This document shows positions 23,341 to 56,761 of a stretch of 56,761 nucleotides of DNA, one piece after another (within the stretch, counting starts at the first letter, position 1; every line of letters starts with the position of its first letter). Source of the stretch: an uncultured Candidatus Saccharibacteria bacterium (lineage in GTDB: Bacteria; Patescibacteriota; Minisyncoccia; Phycocordibacterales; GCA-2401445); contig CAYTAR010000007.1 of assembly GCA_964436015.1 (NCBI GenBank), forward strand, positions 1 to 56,761, in the 5' to 3' direction. The position numbers and the translations under genes are program-made. The notes beneath the pieces are model-generated. The model ran no database searches. It saw only the letters and a list, made by a program, of their open reading frames with translations, and had not been told where the DNA came from.

Positions 23341-23364
23341 TATCTTACGATATATCGTAAGATA
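23341..23364. repeat. Perfect 24-bp palindrome tatcttacgatatatcgtaagata (copy 1 of 2)
   Basis: It is self-complementary by inspection. A near-identical copy lies at 48141-48170. Confidence 0.85.
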
Positions 23365-23434
23365 TGGGTTTCCAAACAAAAAACCCACTTAAGAATTTCT
23401 CTTTTCTTTCTTATCTCTATTTTCAGCTTACATT

Positions 23435-23462
23435 CTAATCTCTGGTCTCCAATCTCTTATCT
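23435..23462. repeat. Degenerate 7-bp tandem repeat (4 units, ctaatct-like)
   Basis: ctaatct ctggtct ccaatct cttatct. Confidence 0.7.
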
Positions 23463-23545
23463 CTGTTTACCTTCACCTTTTCCCTAAGCTCAAGCTTGGG
23501 GAAAATTATATACACGAGACTTTTTGTTTTGTGCATTTCAAAATA

Positions 23546-23773: not shown

Positions 23774-23839
23774 CCCTATTTCCTATTTCCTATTTCCTTT
23801 GAGTCTAATCTCTAATCTCCAATCTCTAATCTCTAATCT
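23774..23839. repeat. Two adjacent 7-bp tandem repeat tracts
   Basis: ycctatt occurs 3 times at 23774-23794, then ctaatct/ccaatct occurs 5 times at 23805-23839. Confidence 0.8.
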
Positions 23840-32922: not shown

Positions 32923-33164
32923 ATGTCTATAACTATATTACTAAAATCAATACATGAGTTTCCTCATTCCGCCAACTATACCACATATCACGGTTAGGTA
33001 AAATACACCTCAATGATTAACAGGTATATTTACACTTTTACATTGCAAAAAGAAATTATTCTACAACATTTATCTTTTCCACAAGCCAGACTCGCACGAA
33101 GACTCCGGCTTTCGCGACTTTGTTTTATTACTCACGAAGTGATTAGAAAACAAGAAGGACCCTT

Positions 33165-33581
33165 GTGGTGATTCTCCCTACCCGCAACATAAATATAGTC
33201 GCAAAATGCTCTCGCATTTTGCTTGTTATTTTTGTGCTTAAAAAGCATAAGAGGGAGAATCGGTCACAGATAATTTTGCTGACCTGCCTTTGCCGGCAGG
33301 CAGGTGTAAAAATTTTGCGACCTGATAATGTTCATTTCTACTTTAATAATGGAGTGTAGAGAATCGGTCACGAGTTACTAAGTCTGCTCATGCACTTCGT
33401 GCATTGCGCGGACTAAGTACTCGCGACCCCGCCTCGTCTGTTTCCGCTTTGAGCAAAAACCTCAAACAGAAACATGACTGCGGCTTTCGATTCTCCACGC
33501 AAGCAAAGAAGTTTGCTTGCTCTACTCCGCACCGCAAACAAAATTACCGTATTCCTGTTCGGAATACGGTAATTTTGGCGG
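33165..33581 (-). repeat. Composite structured element trailing tRNA-Gly(TCC), carrying tRNA T-arm-derived sense and antisense blocks
   Basis: About 160 nt (33417-33581) is roughly 93% identical by eye to 47834-47991. The antisense T-arm block is at 33486-33496. Sense 3'-end copies are at 33356-33371 and 33252-33267. An inverted 17-nt tRNA 3' copy is at 33170-33186. Confidence 0.8.
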
Positions 33582-33652
33582 TGCGGGTAGGGAGAATCGA
33601 ACTCCCGTATACTGCTTGGAAGGCAGTCATTCTACCACTAAACTATACCCGC
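33582..33652 (-). tRNA. tRNA-Gly (anticodon TCC), no encoded CCA
   Basis: Cloverleaf: acceptor GCGGGTA/TACCCGC, anticodon arm ACTGC-CTTCCAA-GCAGT, T arm GGGAG-TTCGATT-CTCCC, discriminator A. Confidence 0.9.
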
Positions 33653-46199: not shown

Positions 46200-46505
46200 A
46201 TGATATACAACAAACTTGTCAGGGATCGCATTCCGGAAATCATCAAAAACAAGGGAGAAAAAGCTATTTACCACACCGCAAGTGAAGCTGAGTATAAAGA
46301 AAAACTTATTGAGAAACTCTCTGAAGAAACACAAGAGTACATTCGCAGTGAAGACGTTTCCGAACTCGCCGATATACTTGAAGTTATTTATTCCCTTGCC
46401 TCACTCTCTAAAGTTTCATCTGAAACACTTGAAAAAATACGAATCGACAAAGCCCAGAAACGGGGCTCATTTAAGGAAAAAATTATCCTTGAAGAGACTC
46501 TATAA
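46200..46505 (+). CDS. MazG-like all-alpha NTP pyrophosphohydrolase (PRA-PH-like)
   Basis: The YNKLVRDRIPEII start and EExxEY / ELADILEV acidic motifs are typical of this small family. Confidence 0.6.
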   Translation: MIYNKLVRDRIPEIIKNKGEKAIYHTASEAEYKEKLIEKLSEETQEYIRSEDVSELADILEVIYSLASLSKVSSETLEKIRIDKAQKRGSFKEKIILEETL

Positions 46506-46667
46506 CCAGATCCATTTTGTATTCAGTAAGCACTGGATACCCTATTTCTATACACTAAAAACAAACGATACAGGCGAAAGCAGTGTTTCTTAGGTAAAAA
46601 TATAGTTTAAACTATAGAATAAACATTTTCGCCAGAATCTCCCTCAACTCACATTTTCTCGTCAGAA

Positions 46668-46894
46668 AATATGGTTTGGGCACCGGCTCGTTGTTGCTCG
46701 AAGCTCGCAACATACTCCGCTGGTCGCTCTCGTGCACAATCTCACTTCGTTCGCTTGTGCCCTCGGACAGAATCAAACCTTACAGGTTCAGTACCCCAAT
46801 TGGATTTTTTCTTCGCCCTTCAGGCTCAAAAAAATGCTCAATCGGGCTTCGAATCCCGGGCGAAAGCGTACCCACGCTTTCTCGCAATTTGATG
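46668..46894 (-). repeat. Structured element trailing tRNA-Pro, with an antisense Pro T-arm block and a foreign tRNA 3'-end fragment
   Basis: ttcgaatcccgg at 46848-46859 (plus strand) is antisense relative to the minus-strand tRNA. A hairpin lies at 46860-46885. A tRNA-like 3' fragment at 46756-46779 (minus sense ggtttgattctgtccgagggcaca) does not match any tRNA in the window. Confidence 0.7.
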
Positions 46895-46967
46895 TCGGAG
46901 CGCCGGGATTCGAACCCGGAGTCATCTGCTCCCAAAGCAGACATGTTAGCCGTTACACCACGCTCCG
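46895..46967 (-). tRNA. tRNA-Pro (anticodon TGG), no encoded CCA
   Basis: Acceptor CGGAGCG/CGCTCCG, anticodon arm TCTGC-TTTGGGA-GCAGA, T arm CCGGG-TTCGAAT-CCCGG. Confidence 0.9.
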
Positions 46968-47020
46968 ATACAATTCAACTACGCTAGTCTAGCATACTGA
47001 ATGCAAAACGCCAGTACTTT

Positions 47021-47044
47021 TATAAAGGACATATGTCCTTTATA
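47021..47044. promoter_or_regulatory. Perfect 24-bp palindrome tataaaggacatatgtcctttata
   Basis: It is self-complementary and abuts the yraN stop codon. The half-site ATAAAGGACAT recurs at 47555-47613 and 50649-50690. Confidence 0.6.
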
Positions 47045-47461
47045 CTACCCCACGTTTACATTTTTTATGTGACGAACCCTTGCAACTCTATTTTGAGTAT
47101 CCAAGCGAACAATTAGCGCATCTAATCTCCATTCTGTTTCATCAGAAACATTATTTTCTAGGAGATAACTCCTAATGGTGCGAGTAAGTCTATCTATTTT
47201 CTTCCTATGTATATTCTCCTCAATACTATATATGCCATCAACACTCGTTACACGTGGAACATACAGTTTTTCAGTTTTTACCTCAACAAAAACCATTATT
47301 CTCTTTTCACGTGCAACAATATCTATTTCTCCCCACTTCTTTCTATAATTTCTGGCAATAACTGAAAACCCCTTTCTGGAAAGGAAGATCTCAGCAATAT
47401 CCTCACCGATTCTCCCAAACTTCATTTTGTCGGTTTCCCGTGAAATATTATTTGTATCCAT
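47045..47461 (-). CDS. yraN: YraN (UPF0102) family endonuclease-like protein
   Basis: GRIGEDIAEIFLSRKGF...NYRKKWGEIDIVA...MVFVEVKT signature. Confidence 0.85.
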   Translation of the reverse strand: MDTNNISRETDKMKFGRIGEDIAEIFLSRKGFSVIARNYRKKWGEIDIVAREKRIMVFVEVKTEKLYVPRVTSVDGIYSIEENIHRKKIDRLTRTIRSYLLENNVSDETEWRLDALIVRLDTQNRVARVRHIKNVNVG

Positions 47462-47629
47462 ATTTATAATAATACTATACCAACCTTGTTACACATGTAA
47501 CATTGTTTCATGTGAAACACACATATTTGTGTGATTGTCAAATATATGGCTCAAAATAAGGACATTTTGTCAAAGTCGTGTTATAAAAAGACAGCTAGCC
47601 ACATGTCTTTTATTCACATATCCACTGAG

Positions 47630-47638
47630 TTATCCACA
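47630..47638 (+). promoter_or_regulatory. Perfect DnaA-box 9-mer TTATCCACA
   Basis: Exact consensus, 17 nt from the degenerate ATAAGGACAT/ATGTCTTTTAT inverted repeat. Confidence 0.35.
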
Positions 47639-47746
47639 GTTTTGTGGTTAAAAAAGAGGATAACGATGTAGAGTAGGGTACTTTTCTGGCTTTAAGGGTA
47701 ATTGTAAATTAACTTTGTTTCCCTTTATTTTATCAATACTTAGAGG

Positions 47747-47752
47747 TATAAT
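47747..47752 (+). promoter_or_regulatory. Candidate -10 box for tRNA-Gly(GCC)
   Basis: TATAAT lies 10 nt upstream of the mature tRNA 5' end. I saw no convincing -35. Confidence 0.4.
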
Positions 47753-47762
47753 TGCTTTCACT

Positions 47763-47833
47763 GCGGGTATGGTTTAGTGGTAGAACACGTCCTTGCCAAG
47801 GACGAGTCGGGGGTTCGATTCCCCCTACCCGCA
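47763..47833 (+). tRNA. tRNA-Gly (anticodon GCC), no encoded CCA
   Basis: Acceptor GCGGGTA/TACCCGC, anticodon arm CGTCC-TTGCCAA-GGACG, T arm GGGGG-TTCGATT-CCCCC. Confidence 0.92.
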
Positions 47834-48059
47834 CCGCCAAAATTACCGTATTCTTAACAGAATACGGTAATTTTGCTTGCGGTGCGGAGTAGAGCAAGCA
47901 AACTTCTTTGCTTGCGTGGGGAATCGAAAGCCGCAGTCATGTTTCTGTTTGAGGCTTTTGCTCAAACAGAAACAGACGAGGCGGGGTCGCGGAAATTTTG
48001 CGCCTGCCGGCAAAGGCAGGTCAGCAAAATTATCTGTGACCGATTCTCTACCCGCACCA
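47834..48059 (+). repeat. Structured element trailing tRNA-Gly(GCC)
   Basis: Hairpins at 47839-47874, 47894-47915, 47941-47973 and 47994-48031. The antisense T-arm block ggggaatcgaa is at 47918-47928. The conserved box gaggcggggtcgcg is at 47978-47991. The terminal sense copy gtgaccgattctctacccgcacca is at 48036-48059. Confidence 0.8.
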
Positions 48060-48136
48060 CAAAAAGTAAGTAGATAGCGAGTTATTTGGTTATAAAAAGT
48101 TATGACCGATTCTTCATATCTCCAAATACATATTTA

Positions 48137-48174
48137 AAAGCATATCTTACGCTATATCGTAAGATATGCTTTTA
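48137..48174. terminator. 38-bp hairpin/palindrome (copy 2 of the cttacg...cgtaag palindrome), a likely bidirectional terminator between convergent tRNA units
   Basis: aaaagcatatcttacg-ctatat-cgtaagatatgctttt: 16-bp arms with A4/T4 flanks. Confidence 0.6.
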
Positions 48175-48278
48175 TGATGTTAATTATAGGTTTTAAGGTA
48201 AATAGGGAAGTAGACTGTTAAAAAATACCTACTTGATTTTCCTGTACCGCCCACCAGCAATGCTGCTAGTACACTAGT

Positions 48279-48650
48279 CTTCAAATCCCGGACGAAAGCG
48301 TCCCCACGCTTTCTCGGGTACAAAATATGGCTAAAAATATAGAGTTTGTGCCCCCGCCAGGATTCGGTCACAAGTTACTGAGGATTTTGCTAGTGAGTAC
48401 ACTTCAAAATCCAAAGTACTCGCGACCCCGCCTCGCTGTCGCAGAGCGACATGCTCCGGCTTTCGAATCCTGACGCAGTGTGTGCAGACACACTGCTTCG
48501 GGAAACATGTGCCCCCGCCAGGATTCGAACCTCTCGGAAACCCACGGTTTTCCGACGGGTAAAGCCCTGCCTTCCTCCACGGGAAACCGCAGGTTTCCCG
48601 ACCCCTTCCTGTTCGAATCCTGGCGGAACACGCCTCGCTACGCTCGTCTG
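48279..48650 (-). repeat. Array of elements trailing tRNA-Arg, with three direct copies and two antisense copies of the tRNA-Arg T-arm/acceptor 3' end
   Basis: tgcccccgccaggattcg occurs at 48651-48668 (in the tRNA), 48510-48527 and 48349-48366. Antisense blocks are at 48611-48626 and 48462-48472. A copy of the Pro-type module lies at 48279-48316. Confidence 0.85.
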
Positions 48651-48722
48651 TGCCCCCGCCAGGATTCGAACCCAGAATAACGGTTCCGAAGACCGTTGTG
48701 ATATCCATTTCACCACAGGGGC
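48651..48722 (-). tRNA. tRNA-Arg (anticodon TCG), no encoded CCA
   Basis: Acceptor GCCCCTG/CGGGGGC (one G-U pair), anticodon arm ACGGT-CTTCGGA-ACCGT, T arm CTGGG-TTCGAAT-CCTGG (two G-U pairs). Confidence 0.85.
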
Positions 48723-48745
48723 GAGCTTAGACATCATACGACACA

Positions 48746-50275
48746 TTGGTCATTTTGCCAAAGGTATACTACAATTATCACGTGAATAATTCTACTGTTT
48801 CAATTGAGTTCTCCATACCAGCACCAGTCAAACATGTAGCTGAAACGTTGCAAAAAGCAGGATTTGAGGCTTTTTTAGTTGGAGGATGTGTTCGTGATCT
48901 CTTTTTGAATAAAAAACCTAAAGATTGGGATATAACAACAAATGCACGCCCGGAACAAATAACCGCCTTGTTTCCTCATACTTTTTATGAAAATGACTTC
49001 GGAACCGTTGGTGTTGTTACTGAAAACACAGAAGATGAAACACTTGCTACCATTGAAGTTACGACATATCGCCTTGAAGCGGAGTATTCAAACAACAGAC
49101 ATCCTGACATGGTCCGTTTTAGTGACACATTACAAGATGATTTAAAAAGAAGAGACTTTACCTTTAATGCACTCGCATACGATACTCAAACTAACACAAT
49201 ACATGACTACTACAACGGCATAGCCGATTTACGCTCGCAAGTGGTTCGTACCGTAGGGAACCCAACTGAGCGATTTGGGGAAGACGCACTTCGTATTATG
49301 AGGGCCGTACGGCTTGCGGTGGAGCTACGCTTTTCAATTGAACCCGAGACTGAACGTGAGATTGCAAATATGGCTCAAAACATAACTACAATTGCGATTG
49401 AGCGTATCCGAGATGAGCTTTCTCGGATCCTACTTTCGCCCAATCCACAGTACGGAATAGAGCTATTGCATAAGGTAGGAGTACTTATATACATCATTCC
49501 AGAACTTATTGAAACACGAGGAATTGAGCAGGGAGGTATACACTCATTTGATGTGTGGGAACATTTACTTAAAACACTCCAGCATTCAGCTGACAAACAG
49601 TGGCCTTTGCACATACGGCTGGCGAGCTTATTTCATGATATAGCCAAACCGGAAACACGAAGGTCTGGAGGAAAGAATAAGGAATGGACCTTTTTTGGAC
49701 ATGAGGTTGTTGGGGCACGAAAAACAAAAACTATTCTTGAACGTTTAAAGTACCCAAAAGCTATTATCACCCGTGTGGTTACCTTGGTTCGTTGGCATAT
49801 GTTTTTTTCTGATACCGAACAAATAACACTATCGGCAGTAAGAAGAATGATCGCAAACGTGGGGGAAGAGAATATATGGGACCTTATGAATGTGCGTATT
49901 TGTGACAGAATAGGGACCGGAAGACCGAAAGAAGACCCTTTCAGATTAAGAAAATATCACGCAATGATTGAGGAAGCACTTCGCGATCCTCTATCAGTTC
50001 GCATGCTTGCCTTACGCGGAGAAGATATCATTGAAATAACCAATTCAAAACCTGGTCCACACATTGGCTTAATTCTACACGCACTCCTCGAAGAGGTACT
50101 TGATAATCCTGAGAAAAACACCAAAGAAATTCTCTCAAAGAGAGCACTAGAACTCTATGCGCTACCCCAAAATATGCTTACAGAGCTTGGCGAAAAGGGG
50201 AAAATAAGGCAAAAGGAAGAAGACAGTGCTGAATCAAAGAAAATCCTTGCGAAATATAAAGTATTGAAAAAGTAG
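48746..50275 (+). CDS. cca: CCA-adding tRNA nucleotidyltransferase with an HD domain
   Basis: GGCVRD and DWDITT nucleotidyltransferase motifs, RDFTFNA, and HD (LFHDIAKP). The true start may be the GTG at 48782. Confidence 0.88.
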   Translation: MVILPKVYYNYHVNNSTVSIEFSIPAPVKHVAETLQKAGFEAFLVGGCVRDLFLNKKPKDWDITTNARPEQITALFPHTFYENDFGTVGVVTENTEDETLATIEVTTYRLEAEYSNNRHPDMVRFSDTLQDDLKRRDFTFNALAYDTQTNTIHDYYNGIADLRSQVVRTVGNPTERFGEDALRIMRAVRLAVELRFSIEPETEREIANMAQNITTIAIERIRDELSRILLSPNPQYGIELLHKVGVLIYIIPELIETRGIEQGGIHSFDVWEHLLKTLQHSADKQWPLHIRLASLFHDIAKPETRRSGGKNKEWTFFGHEVVGARKTKTILERLKYPKAIITRVVTLVRWHMFFSDTEQITLSAVRRMIANVGEENIWDLMNVRICDRIGTGRPKEDPFRLRKYHAMIEEALRDPLSVRMLALRGEDIIEITNSKPGPHIGLILHALLEEVLDNPEKNTKEILSKRALELYALPQNMLTELGEKGKIRQKEEDSAESKKILAKYKVLKK

Positions 50276-52102: not shown

Positions 52103-53020
52103 TTATTGTTTTCTTTTATTATGAAAATTCTTGTGTATATCTCGCAAATGCTTATCAGTAACATGAGTGTATATTTGAGTGGTTCCAATATGGGCGTGCC
52201 CCAAAAGAGCCTGTACACTTCTCAAATCAGCCCCATTGGAAAGCAGATCTGTTGCAAATGAGTGGCGCACCACATGGGGAGTAACTTTTTTTGAAATACC
52301 TGCCTTAATTGCGTAATATTTCACGATACGCTCAACAGAACGAGATGTAATACGTGACAAGGGGAGAGAATTGCTCTTTGAAACCCCAACAAACAACGCA
52401 TCACTCATATCTTTCCTTTTTTCCAAGTATGAACGAACAGCTACTTTAGCCTGAGTAGAAAGAAATACCACCCTTATTTTATCTCCTTTTCCACGAACAG
52501 AAAGTTCATCTCTTCCAAGATCAATATCTCTGTTCAATGAACATAGCTCAGAAACACGCAGGCCTGTTGAAAAAAGAAGTTCAAGTATTGCTTTATCCCT
52601 CAACGACTTAACATCCGTATCTTGCGGAGCATTGAGCAACCTCTCTAATTCATCACTCGTAATCAAATCAAGTGAACGCTCAGAAACCTTCGCGAGCTCA
52701 ATTCGCTCAGGAGGAAGTGACGCAACTCCGCGCTTCAACAAGTACTTTAAAAAAGACCGGAGCGCAATCAAATAATAATTTTGTGTCTTTCGTTTTAACA
52801 TACCCCCTCCACCATTACTACTTGGTGCAGGTTGGCGATTTAGCCACAAACGAAACTCCCTGATACATTCATCAGTAATATCTTTTGGGCTTTTGAGCTT
52901 TGTGTGCTCTAAAAATCGTTCTAGATAACGATCATAGTTGGCAACCGTTTTTAAACTACGGCCTTTCTCTATTTCCACATATTCTAAAAACTCCTGTTTG
53001 TAGCGTTTTAATTCATTCAT
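52103..53020 (-). CDS. XerC/XerD-type tyrosine site-specific recombinase
   Basis: N-terminal SAM-like domain. Catalytic residues appear in LRVSEL (R), HVVRHSFAT (HxxR) and LGHAHIGTTQIYTHV (H...Y). Confidence 0.88.
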   Translation of the reverse strand: MNELKRYKQEFLEYVEIEKGRSLKTVANYDRYLERFLEHTKLKSPKDITDECIREFRLWLNRQPAPSSNGGGGMLKRKTQNYYLIALRSFLKYLLKRGVASLPPERIELAKVSERSLDLITSDELERLLNAPQDTDVKSLRDKAILELLFSTGLRVSELCSLNRDIDLGRDELSVRGKGDKIRVVFLSTQAKVAVRSYLEKRKDMSDALFVGVSKSNSLPLSRITSRSVERIVKYYAIKAGISKKVTPHVVRHSFATDLLSNGADLRSVQALLGHAHIGTTQIYTHVTDKHLRDIHKNFHNKRKQ

Positions 53021-56418: not shown

Positions 56419-56761
56419 ATGGATACTTCTGAAAATGAACAAATTGGTGTTTCTGGCGAGGATATTATAGAAAGAATAAAAAAAACTGAAGAACCTCAGG
56501 TAAAAAATACCAGCCAACCAAAAATCCCTCCTCCAACACCGACTAGTGGCACTGTTCGTCGTCTCCGAACATACGACGATGATCTTGCGCGTATCATGCG
56601 AAAAGAAAAACCGAGCGTGGTAAGTATTGCCATAAAAGAACAGGAACGCAAACGAGTCTTGAGCACACCACCTAAAACACCTATCGTTAAAAATGAAAAA
56701 CCACACCCAGCTCCAGCTCCAGCTCCAGCTCCAGCTCCAGCTCCAGCTCCAGCTCCAGCTC
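56419..56761 (+). CDS. 5'-partial view of a protein with a Pro-Ala repeat; it runs off the right edge
   Basis: My manual translation gives MDTSENEQIGVSGEDIIERIKKTEEPQ...KNEKPHPAPAPAPAPAP with no stop before the window end. It is missing from the ORF track for that reason. Confidence 0.55.
   Translation, partial: MDTSENEQIGVSGEDIIERIKKTEEPQVKNTSQPKIPPPTPTSGTVRRLRTYDDDLARIMRKEKPSVVSIAIKEQERKRVLSTPPKTPIVKNEKPHPAPAPAPAPAPAPAPAPA
56707..56761 (+). repeat. Hexanucleotide tandem repeat (ccagct), at least 9 units, truncated by the window edge
   Basis: Direct reading. It encodes (Pro-Ala)n in the frame of the partial CDS. Confidence 0.9.

What the first reader, a model, noticed from the sequence alone, without database searches (positions are those of the whole stretch)
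48349..48650. tRNA-Arg(TCG) is followed by two more direct copies of its 3' end and two antisense copies, including a perfect 16-bp fold-back
The 18-mer tgcccccgccaggattcg (plus strand), which is tRNA-Arg positions C56 to A73, occurs three times in direct orientation: 48651-48668 (in the gene), 48510-48527 and 48349-48366.

Unit 1 lies between copies 1 and 2. It carries ccgccaggattcgaac (48515-48530) and its perfect inverted partner gttcgaatcctggcgg (48611-48626), separated by 80 nt. This fold-back would recreate a duplex copy of the tRNA T-arm/acceptor region.

Unit 2 lies between copies 2 and 3 and is homologous to the Gly elements. In order it has a hairpin, gt, an antisense T-loop block, aagccg.ag.catg, another hairpin, then gaggcggggtcgcgagtac. 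A 20-mer of that region is identical at 48416-48435 and 33417-33436. A further hairpin and agtaacttgtgac|cgaatcctggcgggggca complete the unit. In unit 2, both the antisense block (caggattcgaa) and the terminal sense block are Arg-specific rather than Gly-specific.

A shared scaffold whose two target-derived segments are swapped to match different tRNAs is hard to explain by simple local duplication. It suggests a retargetable element family.
Basis: partly seen in the sequence, partly recalled or inferred. Interest (0 to 1): 0.78.

Follow-up and report, generated by a model that had tools for sequence, protein, structure and literature searches.

The report
tRNA-homing structured mini-elements in Patescibacteria
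The repeats after tRNA-Arg are successive insertions of small folded DNA elements that home to the T-loop of whichever tRNA or tmRNA gene their variable arm matches, forming a widespread, apparently undescribed family in Patescibacteria that can carry passenger genes.

Summary
The Arg locus is a nested array: tRNA-Arg, unit 1 (family F3), unit 2 (family F1), then a decayed F2 element.

F1 is a real family. The elements lie after tRNAs of at least 19 isotypes and after tmRNA genes.

They share a three-way-junction core with strong covariation. A variable arm is complementary to the neighbouring tRNA from the T-loop onward. The direct repeat always starts at T55|C56, while its 3' end varies. Left and right trailers are sometimes diverged homologues, so the element carries its own tRNA 3' end and terminator.

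Relatives carry 0 to 3 units at the same tRNA-Arg. A few units carry passenger genes and none carries a recombinase. There is no Rfam match, no copy in viral contigs and no paper found.

Best reading: integrase-less, cassette-like integrative elements recognised as a folded single strand, probably DNA, and moved by an unidentified trans-acting enzyme. The enzyme, the chemistry and the DNA-versus-RNA question remain open.

The parts
48650..48722 (-). tRNA-Arg(TCG). Its 3' part from C56 is direct-repeat copy 1 and is the integration target.
   Evidence: ARAGORN; Rfam tRNA model, 59.5 bits.
48733..48761 (-). Promoter-like site upstream of tRNA-Arg (TTGGCA, 17 nt, TATGAT).
   Evidence: Consensus scan, 10 of 12 matches. 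This is a consensus match only.
48510..48649 (-). Unit 1, family F3, the youngest insertion. It has a linker, an antisense arm at 48611-48626, an 80-nt core at 48531-48610 with two hairpins, and direct-repeat copy 2 at 48508-48531.
   Evidence: Perfect 16-bp inverted repeat. Fold z = -5.6 as DNA and -6.0 as RNA. Homologues follow tRNA-Arg in L085 and L118.
48349..48509 (-). Unit 2, family F1. P0 hairpin 48468-48503; antisense arm / P1 5' strand 48464-48475; P2 48430-48460; P3 48367-48426; junction GTGAC|CGA at 48367/48366; P1 3' strand / direct-repeat copy 3 at 48347-48366.
   Evidence: Covariance-model hit 48350-48478, 99.1 bits. The minimum-energy fold gives the three-way junction, z = -5.9 as DNA and -7.6 as RNA.
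48279..48316 (-). Decayed 5' part (P0 hairpin and antisense arm) of an older family-F2 element, now distal to units 1 and 2.
   Evidence: 92% identical to the start of the F2 element after tRNA-Pro (D5). It is orthologous to the single intact F2 element after tRNA-Arg in relative L239.
48135..48174 (-). First terminator-like hairpin downstream of the Arg array.
   Evidence: Terminator scan. A 90% identical copy lies at 23341-23371.
47763..48057 (+). tRNA-Gly(GCC) at 47763-47835. A palindromic left end follows at 47836-47911, then an F1 element at 47912-48057 with antisense arm GGGGAATCGAA.
   Evidence: 81.2 bits. 97% identical over 107 nt to the Gly(TCC) element (I1).
33255..33652 (-). tRNA-Gly(TCC) at 33580-33652. 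A palindromic left end follows at 33503-33579, then an F1 element at 33350-33502 with antisense arm GGAGAATCGAA. A second, 5'-truncated F1 unit lies at 33255-33330.
   Evidence: 99.9 bits. 47 nt are 100% identical to 48002-48048 (I3). GTGACCGATTC occurs at 33257 and 33361.
46756..46967 (-). tRNA-Pro(TGG) at 46894-46967, followed by a family-F2 element at 46756-46893. The element has a P0 hairpin, antisense arm cccgggattcgaag and core CCCGAUUGAG...GGGGUACUGAACCUGUAA. A block resembling an Arg(GCG) tRNA 3' end follows it.
   Evidence: F2 copies also occur in L081 (two), L239 (three) and L085.
46630..46755 (-). Remnant of a fourth scaffold variant (GCGGAG - hairpin - CGAGCCGGUGCCCA...GAGGGAG|attctggcga), distal to the F2 element.
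   Evidence: Read by eye. The same variant follows tRNA-Arg in L273/L278 (32.3 bits with the F1 model).

Best explanation
These are small, non-autonomous integrative elements, typically about 120-200 nt and occasionally 1-2 kb with passenger genes. They insert site-specifically into the T-loop of tRNA and tmRNA genes of Patescibacteria.

Each mobile unit runs, 5' to 3' on the tRNA-sense strand, as follows:
- its own copy of the tRNA 3' part from C56, usually with a terminator hairpin;
- optional cargo;
- often a P0 hairpin;
- an arm antisense to that tRNA part;
- a conserved core (GAAA, P2, GG, P3) ending in GTGAC.

When this strand folds, the antisense arm pairs with the tRNA-derived block (P1). 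P1 stacks on P3 and P2 branches off opposite the junction. The strand-exchange point, core|C56, therefore sits at the branch point of a three-way junction.

Recombination with a tRNA gene at T55|C56 puts the element's block in place of the gene's 3' end, so the tRNA stays intact. The original 3' end is pushed downstream as a direct repeat that then decays. Repeated events build arrays with the youngest unit next to the gene. In the window this gives tRNA-Arg, unit 1 (F3), unit 2 (F1), then the F2 fossil.

Shown: family membership, structure with covariation, tRNA matching, a fixed left boundary, a carried 3' end, and presence/absence among relatives.

Inferred: the active form is folded single-stranded DNA, as for integron attC sites or CTX-phage attP. 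A trans-encoded enzyme performs the exchange; the candidates are a tyrosine recombinase such as the XerA-type enzyme, or an HUH enzyme. The antisense arm is what makes the scaffold retargetable.
For: Family and distribution.
About 110 are Patescibacteria of several classes.
- The covariance model finds 130 copies in 100 of those loci and exactly 3 in the window.
- 111 of 182 tRNAs in the fetched loci are followed by an F1 copy, covering at least 19 isotypes. F1 also follows tmRNA genes.

Structure.
- RNAalifold gives a three-way junction.
- 88.5% of cells are paired, against 75.0% when shuffled and 35-38% when slid. There are 430 double-change cells against 153 when shuffled, reached by 0 of 500 shuffles.
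- Variants flip P2a from GCC:GGC to GGC:GCC and re-pair the base of P3.
- The fold is better on the tRNA-sense strand.

Targeting.
- The antisense arm matches its own tRNA at 6.03 of 7 variable positions, against 3.78 when shuffled.
- It matches the upstream tRNA copy better than the downstream copy in 34 loci, equally in 37 and worse in 5.
- The Gly(TCC) and Gly(GCC) elements are 97% identical but differ A/G in the arm, in step with their tRNAs.

Insertion.
- The left boundary of the direct repeat is T55|C56 in 40 of 40 cases. The right boundary varies from -11 to more than +31 nt relative to the tRNA end.
- Left and right trailers are sometimes diverged homologues that each keep a terminator hairpin (L067, L091, L010, L023, L069).
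- Relatives with the same tRNA-Arg carry 0 units (L240, L276, L280, L283), 1 unit (L239, L275, L279, L284) or more, with the native trailer lying distal to the array.
- The L239 Pro array shows units shuffled between tRNA types.
- Cargo units carry Tmk, ThyX and an ANT(2'')-like nucleotidyltransferase (L108) or PRAI (L105), with no recombinase.

Single-stranded DNA.
- Hairpin loops are dominated by GNA triloops: 38, of which 24 are C-GAA-G, against 3 GNRA and 1 UNCG.
- GCGAAGC occurs 28 times in 7 kb. From established knowledge, d(GCGAAGC) is a hyperstable DNA mini-hairpin.
Against: - No enzyme is identified. No recombinase or transposase is enriched next to the elements. The nearby XerA-type recombinase and YraN are explained by conserved synteny.
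- No excised or circular form has been seen.
- The core has features that suit RNA equally well: tandem G.A pairs and a conserved G.U. The Arg array could be co-transcribed with the tRNA, because no terminator-like site is found on that strand before 48174.
- The loop statistic used DNA folding parameters and is indirect.
- How a unit acquires a new tRNA block together with a matching arm is not explained.
- In some arrays the downstream block seems to travel with the core (Gly loci, L081/L085). The simple model explains this only by invoking recombination between units.
- The apparent invariance of the core is partly an effect of searching with an exact pattern.
Confidence: 0.55

Rival explanations
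1. The scaffold acts as RNA. It is transcribed, for example by read-through from the tRNA promoter. It then serves as a guide RNA or ribozyme whose antisense arm pairs with the T-arm of the matching tRNA gene or tRNA. The guide would direct a trans-encoded recombinase or nuclease, or an RNA-catalysed strand transfer followed by copying into DNA. This would work like bridge RNAs, omega RNAs or group II intron EBS-IBS targeting.
For: - The three-way junction has a GAAA strand, tandem G.A pairs next to P2 and a conserved G.U in P3. The structure exists only on the tRNA-sense strand.
- The RNA fold has z = -7.6.
- A promoter-like site lies at 48761-48733, and the first terminator-like site on that strand is at 48174-48135.
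- The right junction is precise and the left extent variable. From established knowledge, this recalls retrohoming of linear group II introns.
Against: - No Rfam family matches, even at E up to 10.
- No IS110, TnpB, IscB or reverse-transcriptase gene is linked to the elements.
- Most units place a terminator-like hairpin between the tRNA and the core.
- Loops are GNA triloops rather than GNRA or UNCG.
- Diverged but intact left and right trailers argue for a DNA segment brought in from a relative.
Confidence: 0.2
2. These are ordinary double-stranded att-site remnants. They would be leftovers of classical integrase-mediated integration of prophages or integrative elements into tRNA genes, or cis-mobilisable elements that keep only attL and attR and are moved by a conventional integrase recognising duplex DNA.
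For: - The targets are tRNA and tmRNA genes at the T-loop.
- The 3' end is regenerated and direct repeats are left.
- Units accrete in tandem and sometimes enclose cargo. All of this is typical of tyrosine-integrase elements, from established knowledge and as in the ssrA islands described in PMC3146451 (listed).
Against: - Hairpins keep their pairing through compensatory changes on one strand. Duplex protein-binding sites do not require this.
- Complete units are only about 120-200 nt and share one core across at least 19 tRNA types, whereas integrases are normally specific to one tRNA.
- No copy exists in 2.9 million viral contigs; all hits there were chance matches in coding sequence.
- No integrase lies within or beside the units.
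Confidence: 0.12
3. It is a host cis-acting element of tRNA genes. The trailer structure would control termination, 3' processing or tRNA folding. The antisense arm would alternate between pairing with the tRNA 3' half and pairing with the downstream decoy copy.
For: - The arm stays complementary to the functional tRNA even where the downstream copy has decayed.
- The left end forms a long palindrome that includes the tRNA acceptor strand and a terminator-like hairpin.
- All four tRNAs in the window carry such elements.
Against: - The element is absent from the same tRNA in close relatives (L240, L276, L280, L283).
- Units stack in arrays, decay, shuffle between tRNA types and enclose unrelated genes.
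- In the fetched loci, which were selected for carrying at least one element, 71 of 182 tRNAs lack an F1 copy.
Confidence: 0.08

Closest known systems
Integron gene cassettes and their attC sites (IntI tyrosine recombinase)
   Same: - Arrays of units sit at a fixed primary site and each unit ends in a folded, strand-specific recombination site.
- Structure is conserved more than sequence.
- Some units are empty and some carry promoterless genes, including a nucleotidyltransferase of a resistance-gene type.
- The recombinase is not inside the cassette.
- The inner arm of the site pairs with sequence that lies at the far left of the same unit in the linear array. This explains why the antisense arm matches the left copy.
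   Different: - The primary site is any matching tRNA or tmRNA T-loop, not an attI next to intI.
- No IntI-type integrase was found.
- The site is a three-way junction with a long (9-21 nt) target-specific arm, not an R/L-box hairpin with GTTRRRY.
- The elements are restricted to Patescibacteria.
Tyrosine-integrase genomic islands, prophages and cis-mobilisable elements at tRNA/tmRNA genes
   Same: - Insertion is at the T-loop sublocation.
- The element supplies a replacement 3' end and terminator.
- The original 3' end is displaced and forms a direct repeat.
- Units accrete in tandem.
   Different: - Units are 100-200 nt with no integrase.
- One conserved core serves at least 19 tRNA types.
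- There is a covarying single-strand structure and an internal antisense copy of the target.
IS200/IS605 elements, their miniature derivatives, and REP/RAYT systems (HUH Y1 enzymes acting on folded single-stranded DNA)
   Same: - Subterminal hairpins sit on one strand only.
- The cleavage site is chosen by base pairing with an internal guide next to the hairpins, which is retargetable in IS608 (Targeting IS608, PMC5934647, listed).
- Non-autonomous copies are mobilised in trans.
- The active strand would be the lagging-strand template for three of the four window elements (inferred).
   Different: - The guide is 9-21 nt rather than 4 nt.
- There is a long, variable direct repeat, whereas peel-and-paste leaves none.
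- No TnpA or RAYT gene was seen.
- The predicted cleavage point lies in a stacked helix, not an unpaired stretch.
CTX-phage type elements that exploit Xer recombinases (folded single-stranded attP)
   Same: - Two inverted copies of target-like sequence, about 80-90 nt apart, fold into a duplex that mimics the chromosomal target.
- A host recombinase is used and the element encodes none.
- After integration one inverted copy stays internal, near one junction.
   Different: - The target is a tRNA gene rather than dif.
- The elements are tiny and are not phage genomes.
- Use of Xer is untested.
IS110/IS1111 bridge (seek) RNAs and TnpB/IscB omega RNAs
   Same: A conserved structured scaffold is combined with exchangeable target-matching segments. 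In omega RNAs the scaffold sits at the element's right end and abuts flank-derived sequence.
   Different: - No DEDD recombinase, TnpB or IscB gene is linked.
- There is one contiguous guide instead of split loop guides.
- No Rfam match was found.
- The loop composition suggests DNA.

Membership tests
Integron cassette / attC | An IntI-type integrase (with the IntI-specific insertion) and an attI site lie next to the array. | tested here: not met
   The only tyrosine recombinase in the window (52103-53020) reaches the XerA-type model cut-off (248 bits against 220). It falls far below the integron-integrase models (133 against 265, and 73 against 435). No recombinase is enriched near about 110 loci.
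Integron cassette / attC | Imperfect hairpin with R''/L''-L'/R' boxes, and crossover in G|TTRRRY. | tested here: not met
   The structure is a three-way junction with crossover at GTGAC|CGA (T55|C56). There is no GTTRRRY box.
Integron cassette / attC | Strand-specific folded recombination site, conserved in structure, at the 3' end of each unit of an array. | tested here: met
   Covariation is confined to one strand. Arrays and cargo units were found.
Tyrosine-integrase tRNA-targeting integrative elements | An integrase gene lies inside the element next to attL or attR. | tested here: not met
   Units of 120-200 nt have no ORF. Cargo units encode Tmk, ThyX, a nucleotidyltransferase and PRAI only.
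Tyrosine-integrase tRNA-targeting integrative elements | Insertion within a tRNA or tmRNA gene, with regeneration of the 3' end and a direct repeat. | tested here: met
IS200/IS605 or REP/RAYT | A Y1 HUH transposase (TnpA or RAYT) in the element or genome. | tested here: inconclusive
   None was found among the window ORFs scanned or among recurrent neighbours. Whole genomes could not be searched.
IS200/IS605 or REP/RAYT | No target-site duplication; insertion 3' of a 4-5 nt target. | tested here: not met
   The direct repeat is 18 to more than 70 nt, with a fixed left end and a variable right end.
IS110 bridge RNA / TnpB-IscB omega RNA | A linked recombinase or nuclease gene (DEDD-Tnp, TnpB or IscB) and the known RNA fold. 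| tested here: not met
   No such gene is in or beside the units. No Rfam hit, including HEARO and the other curated families.
Any curated RNA family, including self-cleaving ribozymes (Rfam 15) | Score at or near the family's gathering threshold. | tested here: not met
   Only the four tRNAs pass the threshold. At E up to 10 over 46500-48800 there were only noise hits far below their thresholds.
Xer-exploiting elements of the CTX-phage type | Integration at dif through a folded attP that mimics dif, catalysed by Xer. | not testable with these tools
   The fold-back of target-like arms is present, but the target is a tRNA gene. The dif site and Xer activity of these organisms are unknown.

The most novel reading that the evidence does not exclude
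This would be a base-pair-programmed DNA insertion system. A conserved three-way-junction core and an exchangeable 9-21 nt arm position a strand-transfer reaction exactly at T55|C56 of whichever tRNA or tmRNA gene the arm matches. The reaction would be catalysed by an as yet unidentified small host enzyme, or by the nucleic acid itself. The element would be a natural, protein-gene-free, retargetable integration module with cassette-like gene capture, specific to Patescibacteria.
Probability: 0.3. Interest if true: 0.95.

Novelty: new variant of a known kind. Interest (0 to 1): 0.82.

Why it matters
Patescibacteria have tiny genomes and few recognised mobile elements. Even so, a majority of the tRNA genes in the fetched loci carry these units, although those loci were selected for containing one.

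If the antisense arm really sets the insertion site, the family is a compact and naturally retargetable integration module. It has no gene of its own, restores its target gene and can carry passenger genes. That would interest students of mobile-DNA mechanism and of gene flow in an uncultivated superphylum. It could also seed programmable insertion tools.

Even on the conservative reading, it is a large unannotated class of structured elements. These elements inflate intergenic regions, create partial tRNA copies and probably break assemblies in these genomes.

Tried and rejected
- Local tandem duplication or slippage. Rejected: units 1 and 2 have unrelated cores, and each has homologues in other genomes.
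- Known RNA families and ribozymes. No Rfam match at the gathering threshold or at E up to 10.
- Phage or plasmid attP origin. The F1 long pattern gave 0 hits in viral contigs. A relaxed F1 pattern, the F2 pattern and the bare 14-mer gave only chance matches in coding or high-GC sequence.
- A linked recombinase. Clustering 1578 ORFs from about 110 loci found only synteny genes such as the CCA-adding enzyme, YraN and PilM-like proteins. Cargo ORFs are metabolic.
- Fixed-stagger target-site duplication. Rejected because the right boundary of the direct repeat varies by more than 40 nt, and because left and right trailers can be diverged homologues.
- Reading 48279-48316 as Pro-specific. Rejected after comparison with L239.
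- Population comparison by exact protein look-up. The window's ExoIII-like protein is not on record. The nearest CCA-enzyme relative is only 76% identical. One population (L242-L250) lacks the tRNA at that position. The tRNA-anchored metagenome scan worked instead.
- Literature. Six searches found no description of these elements.

Full report
**Observation.** The 18-mer occurs three times in direct orientation, with none expected by chance. The two tRNA-proximal copies are identical over 24 nt. The 16-bp inverted repeat with an 80-nt spacer is perfect. The 22-nt identity with the Gly locus is real. tRNA-Arg(TCG) lies at 48650-48722 on the minus strand. One addition: the unit 1 antisense arm is just as complementary to the tRNA gene's own 3' end, 29 nt away, as to the downstream copy (I2).

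**Anatomy in the window.** Read in tRNA-sense orientation, the locus is as follows.
- tRNA-Arg.
- Unit 1 (48649-48510): a linker, a 16-nt antisense arm, an 80-nt two-hairpin core, then the tRNA sequence from G53.
- Unit 2 (48509-48349): a P0 hairpin, the antisense arm CAGGATTCG, GAAA, P2, GG, a long P3 ending GTGAC, then the tRNA sequence from C56.
- A 38-nt fossil at 48316-48279.

All four tRNAs of the window carry such elements. Both tRNA-Gly genes carry unit-2-type elements that are 97% identical over 107 nt. The arm reads GGAGAATCGAA after Gly(TCC) and GGGGAATCGAA after Gly(GCC), each matching its own T-stem.

**A widespread family (F1).** I made one exact-pattern scan of one genome per species with GAGGCGGGGTCGCG, a 35-65 nt gap, then GTGACCGA. 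About 110 come from Patescibacteria, including Saccharibacteria, Paceibacteria, Yonath-, Morani- and Campbellbacteria, WWE3 and Minisyncoccia. The rest are chance hits in high-GC genomes.

In these loci a same-strand tRNA lies upstream of the core, ending about 70-130 nt before the GAGGCGG motif. The bases after GTGAC repeat that tRNA from C56. The bases before the A-GCC motif are its reverse complement. A covariance model built from 91 copies finds exactly three copies in the window (99.9, 99.1 and 81.2 bits) and 130 in 100 loci.

111 of 182 tRNAs in the fetched loci are followed by a copy, covering at least 19 isotypes. Three apparently orphan copies sit after tmRNA genes. Unit 1 belongs to a second family, F3, with homologues after tRNA-Arg in L085 and L118. 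The element after tRNA-Pro and the fossil at 48279-48316 belong to a third family, F2. A fourth variant appears at 46630-46755 and in L273/L278. All share the same plan: antisense arm, GAA, a G/C-rich helix with GGAG, a GGGGU-type segment, a sharp boundary, then the tRNA block.

**Structure.** RNAalifold predicts a three-way junction. With P1 extended by hand, 88.5% of cells pair, against 75.0% when shuffled and 35-38% when slid. There are 430 double-change cells against 153, and no shuffle out of 500 reaches that. P3 keeps an invariant G.U five pairs from the junction, which is G.G in the L284 variant. Variants found later flip P2a from GCC:GGC to GGC:GCC and re-pair the base of P3, so part of the apparent sequence invariance was an effect of the search pattern.

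The single-sequence fold of unit 2 reproduces the junction on the tRNA-sense strand, with z = -5.9 as DNA and -7.6 as RNA. The opposite strand folds less well. In this fold the continuous strand runs from the 3' side of P3 straight into the tRNA block, so the boundary GTGAC|C56 lies at the branch point opposite P2.

**Targeting.** At variable T-arm positions 59-65 the arm matches its own tRNA at 6.03 of 7 positions, against 3.78 +/- 0.12 for permuted pairs; none of 10000 permutations reaches that. It matches the upstream, functional copy better than the downstream copy in 34 loci, equally in 37 and worse in 5. The downstream copy often decays beyond a few bases while the arm stays intact.

**Evidence that these are insertions.**
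- *Fixed left boundary.* The direct repeat starts at T55|C56 in 40 of 40 cases. Its right end ranges from inside the acceptor to more than 31 nt past the gene, and to about 70 nt with one mismatch in L058.
- *Carried 3' end.* In several loci the sequences after the left and right copies are diverged homologues that each keep a terminator hairpin (L067, L091, L010, L023, L069). The left copy and its terminator therefore arrived with the element from a related genome. They were not made by a fixed staggered cut.
- *Occupancy among relatives.* The syntenic locus of a 76%-identity relative (L239) has one F2 element after tRNA-Arg. Its remnant lies distal to units 1 and 2 in the window. A 65% relative (L240) has none. 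A metagenome scan anchored on the first 44 nt of this tRNA-Arg gave 14 loci. Arg-Gly spacers of 47 and 85 nt are empty, 202 nt holds a decayed element, and 280-691 nt hold one or more units. The native trailer is always distal.
- *Shuffling.* In L239 the Pro array reads Pro block, core, block of another tRNA, arm matching that other tRNA, core, Pro block. Units can therefore recombine into one another's junctions.
- *Cargo.* Three of 39 units with an intact repeat enclose 1.1-2.2 kb. The cargo is thymidylate kinase, ThyX and an ANT(2'')-like nucleotidyltransferase (L108), PRAI (L105) and an unknown membrane protein (L027). No recombinase is present.

**DNA or RNA?** For DNA: most units place a terminator-like hairpin between the tRNA and the core. 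Terminal loops are mainly GNA triloops (38, of which 24 are C-GAA-G), against 3 GNRA and 1 UNCG. GCGAAGC, known as a hyperstable DNA mini-hairpin, occurs 28 times in 7 kb, where fewer than one is expected. The sense strand of three of the four window elements would be the lagging-strand template, judged from GC skew; this is weak evidence.

For RNA: the tandem G.A pairs and the G.U pair suit RNA, and the Arg array has a promoter-like site with no terminator-like site until 48174. I consider DNA more likely, but this is not settled.

**Mechanism proposed.** This part is inferred. The mobile unit is the tRNA block with its terminator, optional cargo, the arm and the core. Folded as a single strand, arm and block form P1, which stacks on P3. 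A trans-acting enzyme exchanges strands at core|C56 with T55|C56 of a matching gene. This works like integron attC x attI recombination or CTX attP folding. The model explains four things:
- the arm matches the left copy, because they are one unit;
- the right copy decays;
- arrays grow at the tRNA-proximal end;
- cassette-like shuffling and cargo occur.

It does not explain how a new block and a matching arm are acquired together. One possibility is template-switch correction of the long quasi-palindrome formed by the tRNA end, the terminator and the arm. That would also account for the A/G difference between the two Gly elements.

**Enzyme.** None is identified. Neighbourhood clustering shows only synteny genes. 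The window's recombinase is XerA-type and is syntenic in relatives with and without elements. YraN is likewise syntenic.

**Comparison with known systems and novelty.** No Rfam family matches, there is no copy in 2.9 million viral contigs, and six full-text searches found no description. The behaviour at tRNA and tmRNA genes is that of classical integrative elements. The miniature size, the lack of an integrase, the covarying three-way junction, the internal target-complementary arm and the use of one core for at least 19 tRNA types are not. I file it as a new variant of a known kind, namely tRNA-targeting integrative or cassette elements. I put about 0.3 on it being a truly base-pair-programmed insertion system.

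Noticed in passing
L102, L112, L017 (about 100 nt upstream of the F1 cores): F1 elements also sit directly after tmRNA (ssrA) genes, whose 3' end reads GGACGGGGGTTCGATTCCCCCCATCTCCA. The arm and block match the tmRNA T-arm.
   Followed up: partly
L085 5250-5280; L118 1915-1945: In F3 elements the downstream tRNA block is interrupted inside its T-loop by a GCGAAGC or GCAAAGC mini-hairpin (ttcga-agcgaagcg-tccaacc...).
   Followed up: no
window 33095-33186: An inverted 17-nt copy of the tRNA-Gly(TCC) 3' end (gattctccctacccgca on the + strand) lies about 390 nt downstream of that gene. A GAAAGCCGGAG-like remnant is next to it. This is probably a third, decayed layer, possibly inverted.
   Followed up: no
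window 23341-23371 and 48136-48173: Two 90% identical copies of a 31-nt palindrome (TATCTTACG.TATATCGTAAGATA). The second is the terminator-like hairpin that closes the Arg array.
   Followed up: no
window 56707-56755: A perfect CCAGCT-based tandem repeat (12-nt register) at the very end of the window.
   Followed up: no
window 23427-23464 and 23797-23834: A 38-nt CTAATCTCT-rich repeat pair (84% identical), 370 nt apart.
   Followed up: no
P0 hairpins of F1 (e.g. window 48468-48503, L008, L019, L109, L113) and first hairpin of F3 (window 48575-48595): The loops share a CTGC motif (aaCTGCtt, CCTGCGG) across families. This may be a recognition or priming signal.
   Followed up: no
L242-L250: Contigs from many samples of one Paceibacteria population all begin about 776 nt upstream of the CCA-enzyme gene. 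This suggests a repeat or a variable region that breaks assemblies there.
   Followed up: no
window 52103-53020 and 47045-47461: A single XerA-type tyrosine recombinase and a YraN (UPF0102) nuclease lie close to the tRNA cluster. Both are syntenic in relatives whether or not elements are present.
   Followed up: partly
L284 2267-2417; L271 12990-13118: Two F1 variants differ in the supposedly invariant core. One has P2a flipped to GGC:GCC. The other has the base of P3 changed to GUCCGGCAG/CUGCGGGAC, with G.G at the position of the usual G.U. A non-Watson-Crick pair is therefore conserved at that position.
   Followed up: partly
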